Assembly (NCBI RefSeq): GCF_003018255.1
Contig: NZ_CP027440.1
Origin: Escherichia coli
Lineage (GTDB): Bacteria > Pseudomonadota > Gammaproteobacteria > Enterobacterales > Enterobacteriaceae
Strand: one strand, 5' to 3'
Length of the DNA stretch: 64,000 nucleotides
A program made the position numbers. Shown one piece after another: positions 45,101 through 48,100 of the stretch; positions within the stretch are counted from its first letter, which is position 1, and the number at the start of each line of letters is the position of its first letter.

Positions 45101-48100
45101 ATACCGCCAATGAAACCAAACGGGTTACGTGAAGCTTCCAGATAAACCGGCGTCGCCCCCGCCTGAATCAGCGCGCCGTGATGATTCGACTTATGGTTGT
45201 TACGGTCGAAGAGCACCAGATCGCCACGCGTTAACAGCGCATTCGTCACTACTTTATTCGCTGCCGATGTGCCGTTCAGCACAAAATAGGTTTTATCGGC
45301 ATGAAAGACTTTGGCTGCGAATTTCTGCGCATCTTTCGCCGATCCTTCATGAATAAGCAGATCGCCCAATTTTACGTCAGCGTTACACATATCGGCGCGA
45401 AAGATGTTCTCACCAAAGAAATCGTAAAAATGGCGTCCGGCAGGATGCTTTTTAAAGAACGCACCATGTTGATGTCCAGGGCAAGCAAAGGTGCTGTTGC
45501 CCATCTCAACGTACTGCGTCAGCGTGTCATAAAACGGTGGCAGCAAATTCTCTTCATACTGACAGGCTGCGGATTCCAGCTCCAGCCACTGCTGCTCGTT
45601 GCCGTTGATTACCGCCGTAACGCCCGCAGGTAATTCAACAACATGTTCGGAATACAAAAACACCGGTAGATGAAAACCGGTGCGCTTAAGCAACGCAAGA
45701 ATGCCACTGCGGCTATCCGCAGCGGTAATGACGACTGCCGCGACGTCCGTAAAATCAGTATCTCCCAACGCCACCACGCGGCGATGAGTAGAAAGTCGGG
45801 ATACCAGTTCACTACTGGCGGCAATATTCATTGATTTCATAAGCGCAAAACCCGTTTCGGGGAAGTAAGAATACCGGACAAGGTGTAAAACCCTGCCCCA
45901 TGAGATATGGGTCAAACTGGTCACCAGCTCCGACCGCCAGACATCAGTAAAAGCAGAAACGCTCTGATTTTACTGTTGTCCTGCAGTGAGCGTGCGTTAA
46001 CTTCACCGCATGAGCAGAAAAGGGAAGGAGTTTCGCGCGAAACGGCGATAAGCGAGAGAATGTAAGGAGGTGGAGTGCATCGAGCAAACTCCGTACAGAG
46101 AGGAGAAAATTCGCGCAATCATGGCACCTTTCACCAGAGCGTGCAAGCCAGGACTTTGCGAACAAACAAGCCATCGAAGGTGCCAAACGGTCATAATAAG
46201 AAAATCAGACAATGCAGCTAACAGGAACTCTTGTGGTCATCGGTCCTTTTATCAACGCAAGTGCAGTATTACTGGGTGGCGTTCTCGGTGCACTCCTTAG
46301 TCAACGCTTACCGGAACGTATCCGCGTCTCCATGACATCAATTTTTGGTCTGGCATCGCTGGGGATTGGTATTTTACTGGTGGTGAAATGCGCCAACCTT
46401 CCGGCGATGGTGTTAGCAACCTTACTCGGTGCATTAATCGGCGAAATGTGTCTGCTGGAAAAAGGCGTCAATACCGCGGTCACCAAAGCACAAAATCTGT
46501 TTCGCCACTCACGTAAGAAGCCAGCGCATGAATCTTTTATTCAGAATTATGTCGCGATTATTGTCCTGTTTTGCGCCAGCGGCACCGGGATCTTCGGGGC
46601 GATGAACGAAGGGATGACCGGCGATCCGAGTATTTTAATCGCCAAGTCATTTCTCGATTTCTTTACGGCGATGATCTTCGCCTGCTCGTTGGGTATTGCG
46701 GTGTCGGTAATTAGTATCCCATTACTGATCATCCAGTTAACGCTGGCGTGGGCTGCCGCGCTGATATTACCGCTGACCACACCGTCGATGATGGCAGACT
46801 TCAGCGCCGTAGGCGGTTTATTGCTGCTGGCAACCGGATTACGCATCTGTGGCATTAAAATGTTCCCGGTGGTCAACATGCTTCCAGCACTCCTTCTGGC
46901 AATGCCCCTTTCCGCCGCCTGGACCGCCTGGTTTGCCTGACAATGCGTGCATTAGCGGCAAAGTGATGATAGATTGTGCAGTCTGCAGTAAATTGAAGAA
47001 ATTTGATTGACGAGACGAGGCGAATCAGGTTTAATGCGCCCCGTTGCCCGGATAGCTCAGTCGGTAGAGCAGGGGATTGAAAATCCCCGTGTCCTTGGTT
47101 CGATTCCGAGTCCGGGCACCACTAATTCTTAAGAACCCGCCCACAAGGCGGGTTTTTGCTTTTGGCTCTGACAATAACCTTCACGAAAAAAATTAGCTTA
47201 TAAAGTCTGGGGGAATTACTCTCGCCACGTTAACGAGAGTAATTTTATTGATATTAATCTCCTGATACTTTACCCCCGTCCAAATTCCAGCCGCTGCACA
47301 TTCACCATTCCAGGCTTCTCACCTGCGCTGACATCAATTTGTGTCACCCGCAGCGCATACTTTTCATCCAGTGCTTTTAACCAGTTCAGCAGGTCATTAA
47401 ACACCACCGGATCTATCCAGACCTGAATATTCTCCCCGCGCTCAGCTATTCGCTTGATGACCACAGAGTGCACGGAAGCGCTGTCGCTGATGACCCGCGA
47501 TACCTGTGCTGGCGTTGTCGTGCCGGATTTTCGCGCTGCAATAATATCCGGCGCGGCGTTCTTCAGTCGGGTGTTCATTGCCACCAGCTGCTGCAACATC
47601 GTCTCCTGTTGTTCTATCCGTTCGCTCAACGGCTGCCAGATGAGGACGTAATATCCGACGCTAAACAGGAACACCACCGCTGCCAGTAACATGCCCTTTT
47701 CACGCGGAGAACGCCCCGCCAGATGTTGTGTCAGCCAGTGTTCGCCACGGCTTAACTGGCGTTCACGCCATTGCTGAAAATAGTGAATAAATTTATCGCG
47801 TAACATGTTATTTCCTCCGCAACGTTACGCCGCCGGAAACCGCATCACCCTCTTTCTGTAACGCGTCCTGTTGCACAACATAATCTGCCGCCAGTGCGCT
47901 ACGCAGTTTGTCGAAGCTGGCAAAGTTCGCAGCCCGTAGCTGGAGGTGAAGCGTCTGGCGTTTTTGATCAAAGGTGAAACCACGCATTTCGATGTCGGTA
48001 AGTGACGCTGATTTCAGGGTACTGGCGATCGCTGACAATTCTGCGAGCAGCCGGGTATCGTCGGCCTGCGGGCGATATTTTTTCAGCGCCATCGTCACCT

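What the first reader, a model, noticed from the sequence alone, without database searches (positions are those of the whole stretch)
45841..46211. Long divergent speC-yqgA intergenic region with no assigned feature
About 370 bp separate the divergent speC and yqgA starts. The region is GC-balanced and contains only short overlapping ORFs of doubtful coding value. It could hold a long 5' leader, a small regulatory ORF or an sRNA, but I cannot identify one from sequence alone.
Basis: inference. Interest (0 to 1): 0.2.

Follow-up and report, generated by a model that had tools for sequence, protein, structure and literature searches.

The report
Translated mini-gene and folded speC leader
The "empty" gap before the ornithine decarboxylase gene speC holds the already annotated mini-gene yqgH and a strongly conserved folded RNA leader, which suggests that this supposedly constitutive polyamine enzyme is regulated after transcription starts.

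Summary
The interval is real: 371 bp, 49.9% GC, between divergent speC and yqgA. It is not featureless. On the speC strand at 46003-46080 lies yqgH (b4785 in MG1655, Pfam PF23506), a small ORF shown to be translated in K-12 in 2019; no function is reported in the papers I could search.

Comparing about 110 enterobacterial speC upstream regions shows that yqgH is the upstream ORF of a roughly 270-nt speC leader. Its Shine-Dalgarno, ATG, reading frame and CGG-UGA end are kept across at least 12 length classes. Substitutions fall equally on all three codon positions, so translation is selected, not the peptide. The uORF RNA is unusually C-rich and G-poor, like a Rho loading site.

Downstream is a nearly invariant 65-nt hairpin (-30.7 kcal/mol, z -6.1, 99% of cells paired) and a hairpin with compensatory changes at 8 of 9 pairs. 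The element has no Rfam match, occurs only before speC, and is missing in some lineages. It is unrelated to SpeFL or the speF leader.

Best reading: a uORF-dependent cis-regulatory leader (attenuator) of speC. The mechanism, Rho termination and/or start-site occlusion, and any signal are inferred only. The ORF is known; the leader appears undescribed.

The parts
46141..46146 (-). Predicted speC/yqgH promoter -35 hexamer (TTGCAC)
   Evidence: The TTGCAC/TTGCGC column is conserved across genera while the first half of the 17-nt spacer varies; coordinates. Inferred. The generic promoter scan did not flag it, because it scores only 7 of 12 consensus matches.
46118..46126 (-). Predicted extended -10 (TGcCATGAT). 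It is followed by the near-invariant TGCGCGAATTTTCTCC (46102-46117), a G+C-rich discriminator and start of the transcript; predicted start around 46111-46113
   Evidence: AAAGGTG(A/C)CAT(G/T)ATTGCGCGAATTTTCTCC is nearly invariant in about 65 leaders, and is retained in lineages that lost the rest of the leader. The start site is an inference; no mapping data were available.
46089..46092 (-). Shine-Dalgarno (GGAG) of yqgH, 8 nt before its ATG
   Evidence: A GGAG/GGGG/GAGG block 5-12 nt before the aligned ATG occurs in nearly all orthologs.
46003..46080 (-). yqgH upstream ORF, 25 codons plus UGA ([25 protein letters not shown]). The RNA is C-rich and G-poor (rut-like). It contains the conserved mid-ORF GCGCGAA box and ends in the invariant CGG UGA
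   Evidence: Translation. Pfam PF23506, 36.7 bits. K-12 ortholog b4785. Translation shown in K-12. Frame kept across at least 12 length classes. No third-position excess of substitutions. 29 C against 12 G in 78 nt, the 99.5th percentile of the window.
45993..46017 (-). Stop-codon region with two small alternative helices. One is UGCG/CGCA with UGA in the loop. The other is (U)CACC-AUGC-GGUGA(G), which is strong in most genera and degenerate in Escherichia
   Evidence: RNAalifold pairs 27-30/41-44. The H1 helix is 83.8% paired across taxa. It is not significant in the window itself, z -0.13. CTCACC-GUUC-GGUGAG is retained in E. cloacae-complex leaders that lack the uORF.
45927..45991 (-). H2: a 65-nt irregular hairpin of 25 pairs, nearly invariant in sequence
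   Evidence: -30.7 kcal/mol, z -6.11, 0 of 200 shuffles as stable. 99.2% of cells paired; 11 pairs vary on one side only, always staying paired, and 2 pairs show double changes. Fixed U-G and G-U pairs at 52/102 and 56/98 fit only the speC-sense strand. A further C-G to U-A change was seen in metagenome variants.
45917..45927 (-). H3: small hairpin CUGG-UGA-CCAG
   Evidence: 90.5% paired, with one pair showing a double change. The loop and neighbouring bases vary between genera.
45876..45898 (-). H4: a 9-bp hairpin, variable in sequence with compensatory changes, followed by a U-rich stretch
   Evidence: 8 of 9 pairs have changes on both sides, 95.6% paired. -12 kcal/mol, z -3.73. Flagged as terminator-like in the window. 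In most genera the U run lies 5-7 nt beyond the stem, so it is not a canonical terminator.
45841..45862 (-). speC translation-initiation region: mini-hairpin CCCC-GAAA-CGGG (45851-45862), then UUUUGCGCUU before the AUG, with no recognisable Shine-Dalgarno
   Evidence: CGGG and (U)GCGCUU-AUG are conserved. This box is complementary to the mid-uORF GCGCGAA box: 11 bp in the window, 14-15 bp in L079 and L052. Overall the pairing is no better than in shuffles.
43705..45840 (-). speC, ornithine decarboxylase: the gene the leader precedes
   Evidence: ORF; 98% identical to E. coli SpeC; annotated.

Best explanation
The interval is the 5' leader of the speC mRNA, plus the back-to-back speC and yqgA promoters. 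Transcription most likely starts near 46112 from a weak extended -10 promoter (inferred).

The leader first encodes the upstream ORF yqgH. Translation of yqgH is shown in K-12. Its start, frame and CGG-UGA end are under selection, but its amino-acid sequence is not (shown here). What matters is therefore ribosome traffic over this stretch, not a diffusible peptide.

The uORF RNA is a C-rich, G-poor tract of the kind that loads Rho. It is followed by a very stable, sequence-invariant hairpin (H2), two smaller hairpins (H3, H4), and a speC start site that has no Shine-Dalgarno.

Proposed working (inferred):
- Ribosomes translating yqgH cover the rut-like tract and transiently melt pairings between the uORF and downstream segments. 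RNA polymerase then reaches speC and the speC start site is accessible.
- When yqgH translation is poor, Rho terminates inside the structured leader and/or the start site stays folded.

This would tie synthesis of the 'constitutive' ornithine decarboxylase to translational status, and possibly to a metabolite.

My estimates: cis-regulatory leader whose uORF acts through its translation, about 0.65; Rho-dependent attenuation as the main route, about 0.35; control at speC translation initiation, about 0.3 (the two are not exclusive); a specific small-molecule signal, about 0.2.
For: yqgH is annotated and translated in K-12, and the window copy passes the Pfam cut-off.

Among 80 species-level speC loci, about 65 share the full architecture. 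Every one of these has an SD-preceded ATG in frame with the conserved UGA, although lengths range from 18 to 34 codons. The +1 frame has stops in 55 of 65 and the +2 frame in 17 of 65.

Substitutions are spread evenly over codon positions: 834/799/820, 684/506/679 and 156/142/178, with nonsynonymous far exceeding synonymous changes. Between the window and K-12 the uORF is the most diverged segment, 86.9% against 98.8% for the rest of the leader.

uORF composition averages 34% C and 20% G across taxa, and lies in the 99.5th percentile of C-G skew within the 64-kb window.

RNA structure: H2 and H4 statistics are. The whole 292-nt leader folds at -86.4 kcal/mol, z -3.07. Fixed G-U pairs fit the speC-sense strand only.

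The H2 core lies 106-117 nt before a SpeC ORF in all 46 distinct metagenome leaders that could be evaluated, and nowhere else. It is single-copy in E. coli, median one place per genome.

Natural variants lacking the uORF and/or H2-H4 still have speC, as expected of a regulatory module rather than an essential one.
Against: No transcription start, 3'-end or Rho-dependence data for this leader were found. The Term-seq supplements held for PMC7815308 contain no speC or yqgH entry.

The promoter is weak by consensus and was not flagged by the scan. Rut-like composition is only suggestive.

The long-range uORF/start-site pairing is no better than in shuffled controls across taxa: mean z -0.4, and MFE pair counts of 7.7 against 7.3. 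Alternative pairings around H2 are compatible with the alignment but show no covariation.

The extreme sequence invariance of H2 is not explained by a simple occlusion model. It hints at an unknown partner, whether protein, RNase, sRNA or ligand.

speC is described in the literature as constitutive.
Confidence: 0.55

Rival explanations
1. The structured leader (H2-H4) works on its own as a target for a protein, an RNase (for example RNase III on the 25-bp H2 duplex) or an sRNA that sets speC mRNA stability or translation. On this view yqgH translation is incidental or merely protective.
For: H2 is conserved in sequence far beyond what a hairpin needs, which suggests a sequence-specific partner. 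Pseudocitrobacter keeps H3-H5 without the uORF or H2, and the Pseudescherichia group keeps the uORF without H2-H4, so the modules can separate.
Against: Start, frame and stop of the uORF are maintained through many indels. That is hard to explain if translation were incidental. No partner is known, and literature searches for speC with RNase III or other factors found nothing relevant.
Confidence: 0.2
2. YqgH is a functional small protein acting in trans, and its position before speC is only an operon arrangement.
For: The ORF is translated and was counted among the validated small proteins. A curated Pfam family exists.
Against: There is no amino-acid-level constraint: substitution rates are equal at the three codon positions, length varies from 18 to 34 codons, and only the last four residues are conserved. 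Those four coincide with conserved RNA. The ORF is lost in the E. cloacae complex and in Pseudocitrobacter. No PDB or other family match exists.
Confidence: 0.08
3. YqgH is a metabolite-sensing arrest peptide of the SpeFL or TnaC type that stalls the ribosome at its Arg-stop end.
For: All orthologs end in Arg(CGG)-UGA, usually preceded by L-T-M. SpeFL also stalls with Arg in the P site on a stop codon. The window copy shares RNSF.F with SpeFL. The gene context, ornithine decarboxylase, is analogous.
Against: There is no HIRRXXH motif and no Pfam cross-match. The RNSF.F match is absent from K-12 and other genera. The body of the peptide is unconstrained, whereas the SpeFL sensor residues are strictly conserved. 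CGGUGA is kept in leaders that have lost the uORF, so the constraint is at least partly at the RNA level. The speC and speF leaders share no sequence similarity.
Confidence: 0.1
4. The conservation reflects DNA-level operators (CRP or others) for the divergent speC and yqgA promoters, not RNA.
For: speC is listed as a RegulonDB CRP target, and yqgA appeared as a CRP SELEX-chip target (PMC3105977). A CRP-like sequence, TGAGATATGGGTCAAA with 2 mismatches, lies at 45901-45916.
Against: The conserved block lies 100-200 bp downstream of the conserved promoter-like element, inside the transcribed strand. Substitutions keep base pairing, G-U pairs fit one strand only, and H4 shows compensatory changes. 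The CRP-like site falls in a segment that differs between genera.
Confidence: 0.05

Closest known systems
speFL-speF leader (ornithine-sensing arrest peptide with Rho-dependent attenuation; Herrero del Valle 2020, Ben-Zvi 2019)
   Same: A short translated uORF ending in Arg-stop lies in a long leader before an ornithine decarboxylase gene, in the same bacteria. The uORF RNA has a composition suited to Rho loading.
   Different: There is no sequence relationship between the peptides (Pfam, BLASTP) or the leaders. There is no HIRRXXH sensor. The YqgH sequence is unconstrained. The speC leader carries an invariant 65-nt hairpin that has no counterpart. Ligand dependence and Rho dependence are untested.
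tnaC-tnaA, mgtL-mgtA, corL-corA and mdtU-mdtJI type uORF-controlled Rho attenuators
   Same: The leader uORF sits on or next to a C-rich tract, a structured spacer follows, and translation of the uORF is expected to gate Rho access. mdtU responds to the polyamine spermidine (PMC7815308).
   Different: No bicyclomycin or 3'-end evidence exists here. The spacer of about 160 nt is unusually conserved in sequence. The signal is unknown.
Classical amino-acid attenuators (trpL, hisL, leuL, pheL)
   Same: A leader peptide ORF followed by hairpins that allow alternative pairings.
   Different: There is no run of regulatory codons. There is no canonical intrinsic terminator, because the U tract is displaced from H4 in most genera. 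The terminator/antiterminator alternatives are not supported by covariation.
Rfam speF element / odc1 motif of alpha-proteobacteria (PMC8632094)
   Same: A conserved structured RNA, there associated with a uORF, before an ornithine decarboxylase gene.
   Different: It occurs in a different phylum and has a different structure. cmscan against Rfam 15 gave no match in the speC leader even at E up to 10.
Eukaryotic polyamine-pathway uORFs (AdoMetDC MAGDIS, antizyme frameshift, AZIN1 uCC)
   Same: Polyamine biosynthesis genes controlled through events at the end of a short upstream ORF.
   Different: The analogy is functional only. Nothing here shows polyamine responsiveness.

Membership tests
YqgH small protein family (Pfam PF23506; b4785) | Sequence match above Pfam's gathering score | tested here: met
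   Window peptide 36.7 bits and K-12 peptide 66.8 bits, against a cut-off of 27.
YqgH small protein family (Pfam PF23506; b4785) | Syntenic position between speC and yqgA, on the speC strand | tested here: met
   Same position as the annotated yqgH in XL1-Blue, ST2747 and MG1655.
YqgH small protein family (Pfam PF23506; b4785) | Evidence of translation | not testable with these tools
   Shown for K-12 only, by Onc112/retapamulin ribosome profiling and by PIRT-seq. The window copy keeps the same SD and ATG context.
SpeFL-type ornithine-sensing arrest peptide (Pfam PF10940) | HIRRXXH sensor motif and profile match | tested here: not met
   No PF10940 match even at E up to 10. Only a 6-residue RNSF.F match, limited to the window lineage.
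SpeFL-type ornithine-sensing arrest peptide (Pfam PF10940) | Homologous leader before speF-potE | tested here: not met
   speC against speF leader: local alignment score 19, shuffle mean 18.4.
SpeFL-type ornithine-sensing arrest peptide (Pfam PF10940) | Ligand-dependent ribosome stalling at the stop codon | not testable with these tools
   Needs toeprinting or cryo-EM. No PDB entry exists for YqgH.
uORF-dependent Rho attenuator | Translated uORF in the 5' leader of the regulated gene | tested here: met
   yqgH lies 163 nt before speC on the same strand, with a conserved SD, ATG, frame and stop. That the two share one transcript is inferred.
uORF-dependent Rho attenuator | C-rich, G-poor rut tract that ribosomes on the uORF can mask | tested here: inconclusive
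   The composition fits: 29 C against 12 G in 78 nt, 99.5th percentile; mean 34% C and 20% G across taxa. Composition alone does not prove Rho binding.
uORF-dependent Rho attenuator | Bicyclomycin- or Rho-sensitive premature 3' ends in the leader | not testable with these tools
   No entry in the supplements held. Literature searches found nothing.
Classical ribosome-mediated attenuator with intrinsic terminator | Run of codons for the sensed amino acid | tested here: not met
   Arg is frequent but forms no conserved run, and the peptides are highly variable.
Classical ribosome-mediated attenuator with intrinsic terminator | G+C-rich hairpin immediately followed by a U tract, with a competing antiterminator | tested here: inconclusive
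   H4 is terminator-like in the window. In most genera the U run lies 5-7 nt beyond the stem. The alternative pairings lack covariation.
Any curated Rfam family | Covariance-model match | tested here: not met
   cmscan of 45300-47300 at E up to 10 found only tRNA-Phe and chance hits outside the leader.
Riboswitch | Conserved structured aptamer with conserved unpaired nucleotides, plus an expression platform | tested here: inconclusive
   H2 is conserved, with fixed bulges and mismatches, but its apical loop and all other loops vary and no multi-helix junction is supported. Ligand binding cannot be tested here.

The most novel reading that the evidence does not exclude
The yqgH uORF and the invariant H2 hairpin together form a sensor-attenuator unrelated to SpeFL. 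It would place the 'constitutive' ornithine decarboxylase SpeC under feedback or feed-forward control by a pathway metabolite (polyamine, ornithine or arginine) or by a dedicated RNA-binding factor. H2 or the terminating ribosome at CGG-UGA would be the sensing element.
Probability: 0.2. Interest if true: 0.75.

Novelty: new member of a known kind. Interest (0 to 1): 0.5.

Why it matters
Textbooks treat SpeC as the constitutive route to putrescine, and how its synthesis follows growth rate, cAMP and polyamine levels has never been explained mechanistically.

Three observations give a concrete handle on that question:
- speC sits behind a translated uORF whose frame, but not its peptide, is conserved.
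- It also sits behind a roughly 160-nt folded RNA that has stayed almost unchanged across the sampled Enterobacteriaceae that carry the full leader (Escherichia to Kosakonia).
- Some lineages have cleanly deleted these modules, which provides natural controls.

The work also reclassifies the 'small protein' YqgH as most likely a leader ORF, and supplies an alignment from which an RNA family could be built. If a metabolite or factor acts on this leader, both ornithine decarboxylases of enterobacteria would be controlled by independent leader-ORF devices.

Tried and rejected
1. Homology of YqgH to SpeFL. This was suggested by RR at positions 12-13, RNSF.F and the Arg-stop end. I rejected it: there is no profile cross-match, the match is only a 6-mer, the motif is absent in K-12 and other genera, and the two leaders are unrelated.

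2. Rfam. No family matches in the leader.

3. A long-range helix between the mid-uORF GCGCGAA box and the speC start region. It is striking in the window MFE and in L052, L079 and L057. Duplex energies and MFE pair counts are no better than for shuffled 5' regions across 65 leaders, and RNAalifold on the full-length alignment does not recover it. I kept it as a lead only.

4. Alternative pairings GGUGAG/CUCACU and GUCUG/CAGAC. They are compatible with the alignment but the sequences are invariant, so they offer no test.

5. A mutual-information scan for extra helices or pseudoknots. It was dominated by clade signal and added nothing beyond H4.

6. The 'MSGGRSW' and 'HAV..CFY' ORFs in the other frames downstream of yqgH. 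They are conserved because the RNA is conserved; they have no SD, and the changes in them are non-synonymous.

7. The terminator-like hairpin inside speC (45660-45683). The pairing is not maintained at synonymous sites in other genera.

8. H4 as a canonical intrinsic terminator. The U tract is displaced in most genera.

9. Reaching SpeC orthologs outside Enterobacteriaceae. The protein search listed only close relatives. The metagenome core scan found only the same family.

10. Literature and supplement look-ups for a speC leader, start site, Rho or RNase III link. Nothing relevant turned up.

11. PDB. No entry.
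Full report
**The interval.** speC occupies 43705-45840 on the minus strand; the ATG at 45840 gives MKSMNIAAS. 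The yqgA frame opens on the plus strand at ATG 46212. RefSeq starts the orthologous gene at the GTG equivalent to 46233, behind an AGGA Shine-Dalgarno. Its GC is 49.9% against 51.7% for the window. Flanking genes (nupG, speC, yqgA, tRNA-Phe, T2SS genes) match the E. coli 66.9-min region. The window comes from a divergent Escherichia lineage. Its best match is strain ST2747 at 98.9%, while most of 5424 complete E. coli genomes match at 90-95%.

**What is already assigned.** The interval is not featureless. RefSeq annotates a small minus-strand CDS, yqgH: MG1655 b4785, 3109317..3109400, 27 aa, [27 protein letters not shown]. The window ortholog is 46003-46080, 25 aa, [25 protein letters not shown], with a UGA stop. 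It matches Pfam PF23506 'YqgH' above the cut-off, 36.7 against 27 bits. yqgH was discovered as ORF22 by ribosome profiling with initiation inhibitors (Weaver et al., bioRxiv 10.1101/511675). PIRT-seq detected it again (PMC12350097). Neither paper assigns a function or tests an effect on speC. No other paper in the searchable library links speC to a uORF or leader. speC is described as the constitutive decarboxylase.

**Comparative data.** One scan of species-representative genomes with the SpeC N-terminus returned 80 Enterobacteriaceae loci. Their speC start codons align unambiguously. About 65 share one architecture:
- a conserved TTGCAC/TTGCGC hexamer, then 17 nt, then TG-n-CAT(G/T)AT, followed by the almost invariant TGCGCGAATTTTCTCC. 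I read this as an extended -10 promoter with a G+C-rich discriminator (inference);
- an SD-like GGAG/GGGG and an aligned ATG;
- an ORF of variable length that always ends ...(L/P)(T/A)(M/V)R with CGG UGA, 159-167 nt before speC;
- a strongly conserved block of about 160 nt running to the speC ATG.

A metagenome scan for the core of that block gave 80 loci. All 46 distinct leaders that could be evaluated had the core 106-117 nt before a SpeC-like ORF (68-99% identity over the first 150 residues). None lay in another context. In E. coli the interval is single-copy.

**The uORF is selected for being translated, not for its product.** Every full-architecture leader has an SD-preceded ATG in frame with the conserved UGA and no intervening stop. 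This holds although lengths fall in at least 12 classes (18-34 codons). The +1 frame contains stops in 55 of 65 leaders and the +2 frame in 17 of 65. Within three groups of equal length, pairwise substitutions are spread evenly over codon positions 1/2/3: 834/799/820, 684/506/679 and 156/142/178. Nonsynonymous codon differences outnumber synonymous ones three- to eightfold (1307:289, 991:131, 255:78). Between the window and K-12 the uORF is the most diverged piece, 86.9% identical with a 6-nt indel. The downstream leader and the speC coding sequence are both 98.8% identical. The islands conserved inside the ORF (ATCGC, GCGCGA, CCC, CACCATGCGGTGA) are conserved as nucleotides. CGGTGA survives even in E. 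cloacae-complex leaders that have lost the ORF. This is the signature of a leader or regulatory uORF, and it argues against a trans-acting small protein.

**RNA structure.** RNAalifold on 66 distinct leaders (alignment A1) predicts a 65-nt irregular hairpin, H2 (window 45927-45991), and a 9-bp hairpin, H4 (45876-45898).

- H2, counted explicitly, has 25 pairs with 99.2% of cells paired. Eleven pairs vary on one side only and always stay paired through G-U; 2 pairs show double changes.
- H4 has changes on both sides at 8 of 9 pairs. All five whole-structure measures exceed all 500 shuffles, and they collapse when partners are slid by 1-3 columns.
- In the window, H2 folds at -30.7 kcal/mol (z -6.1, 0 of 200 shuffles) and H4 at -12 kcal/mol (z -3.7). 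The whole 292-nt leader folds at -86.4 kcal/mol (z -3.1).
- Fixed U-G and G-U pairs in H2 would be C-A mismatches on the other strand, so the structured molecule is the speC-sense RNA.
- H2 is conserved in sequence far beyond what pairing requires: a 32-nt core has 0-2 mismatches in the full-architecture leaders of all the genera that have it. Meanwhile all hairpin loops vary.
- No Rfam family matches.

**Other features.** The uORF RNA is C-rich and G-poor in every lineage despite rapid sequence turnover (mean 34% C, 20% G). In the window it has 29 C against 12 G in 78 nt, the 99.5th percentile of all 78-nt windows on both strands of the 64 kb. This is the composition expected of a Rho loading site. 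The speC start region (CCCC-GAAA-CGGG, then UUUUGCGCUU-AUG) has no recognisable Shine-Dalgarno in any genus.

Natural deletion variants show that the parts are separable and dispensable:
- The E. cloacae complex keeps only the promoter, a CTCACC-GUUC-GGUGAG hairpin and speC.
- The Pseudescherichia group and L066 keep promoter and uORF, with speC starting 22 nt after the uORF stop (measured in the Pseudescherichia group).
- Pseudocitrobacter keeps H3-H5 only.

**Mechanism.**

Shown:
- a translated uORF (in K-12);
- selection on its translation;
- a conserved structured RNA on the same strand;
- exclusive association with speC.

Inferred:
- one transcript from a promoter near 46118-46146;
- ribosomes on yqgH mask a rut-like tract and remodel the leader, so that transcription and/or translation of speC depends on yqgH translation.

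I tested one specific remodelling idea. The mid-uORF GCGCGAA box can pair with the UUYGYGC box just before the speC AUG: 11 bp in the window and part of its MFE, and 14-15 bp in Leclercia and Enterobacter leaders. Across 65 leaders, however, this is no better than shuffled controls, and a full-length consensus fold does not recover it. It remains a lead. Alternative pairings that would make H2 a switch are compatible but untestable, because the sequences do not vary. H4 followed by a U-rich stretch is terminator-like in the window but not in most genera. I therefore favour Rho-dependent attenuation and/or initiation control over classical attenuation. I put about 0.65 on the general claim and about 0.35 on the Rho branch.

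**Comparison with known systems.** The nearest analogue is speFL-speF: a uORF ending in Arg-stop before the paralogous decarboxylase, with Rho-dependent attenuation and ornithine sensing by the nascent peptide. Membership fails. There is no HIRRXXH motif and no PF10940 match. The only shared stretch is a lineage-specific 6-mer. The leaders are unrelated (score 19 against shuffle mean 18.4). The peptide body is unconstrained. Other analogues are tnaC and mdtU-mdtJI. The alpha-proteobacterial odc1/speF RNA motif is a different structure in a different phylum.

**Novelty and verdict.** The ORF is already known and annotated. Its reading as a leader ORF, and the conserved structured speC leader (H2-H4, promoter block, deletion variants), are not described in Rfam or in the literature I could search. 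That covers open-access full text only, so an older description in a subscription journal cannot be excluded. I classify it as a new member of a known kind: a uORF-containing regulatory leader. Interest is moderate. It concerns a textbook 'constitutive' enzyme and gives directly testable constructs, but no signal or mechanism has been demonstrated.

Noticed in passing
window 46212-46940 (+): The yqgA start is ambiguous. RefSeq starts the ortholog at the GTG equivalent to 46233, which has an AGGA Shine-Dalgarno 6 nt upstream; ATG 46212 has none.
   Followed up: partly
L065, L073, L077, L078, L081 (E. cloacae complex); L044, L047, L053, L066; L022-L024 (Pseudocitrobacter): These are natural deletion variants of the speC leader. 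Three forms occur: promoter plus one hairpin only; promoter plus uORF with speC close after the stop (22 nt in L044/L047/L053); or H3-H5 without the uORF and H2. They are ready-made comparative controls for the function of each module.
   Followed up: partly
window 45901-45916: A CRP-like sequence, TGAGATATGGGTCAAA (2 mismatches to TGTGA-N6-TCACA), lies inside the transcribed leader between H3 and H4. The segment is specific to Escherichia, Citrobacter and Salmonella. speC is a listed CRP target and yqgA a SELEX-chip CRP target (PMC3105977).
   Followed up: partly
window 45660-45683 (-), inside speC codons about 53-60: A terminator-like hairpin with a U run (GCACCGGUUUUCAUCUACCGGUGU UUUUGUAUUC) lies on the sense strand early in speC. 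The pairing is not maintained at synonymous sites in other genera, so it is probably a by-product of the RTGFxLPVF coding sequence.
   Followed up: yes
window 45841-46002 (-), frames +1 and -1 relative to yqgH: Two further open frames, ...SLQDNSKIRAFLLLLMSGGRSW* and HAVKLTHAHCRTTVKSERFCFY*, look conserved across genera. In Kosakonia-type leaders the first runs to a UGA 17 nt before the speC AUG. Neither has an SD, and the changes are non-synonymous, so the conservation is that of the RNA. Frameshifting at CGG-UGA was not tested.
   Followed up: partly
A1 columns 70/84 (window 45967 / 45953), inside H2: A fixed U-C mismatch in H2 changes together to C-A, C-U, G-C or G-U in different clades. It may be a non-canonical pair or a contact site.
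   Followed up: no
L003 (Escherichia sp. MOD1-EC7003) and window against K-12: Within Escherichia the 3' half of yqgH is a hot spot of in-frame indels, giving 18, 25, 27 and 28 codons. The flanking leader is about 99% identical.
   Followed up: partly
window 47046-47121 (+) and 47130-47160: tRNA-Phe (GAA; pheV) is followed by a terminator-like hairpin. In the closest relative, ST2747, an IS110 fragment follows pheV, whereas this window continues into T2SS genes (gspM- and gspL-like, 47270-48986). The gspL-like ORF here is 392 aa, longer than the 861-bp K-12 yghE.
   Followed up: no
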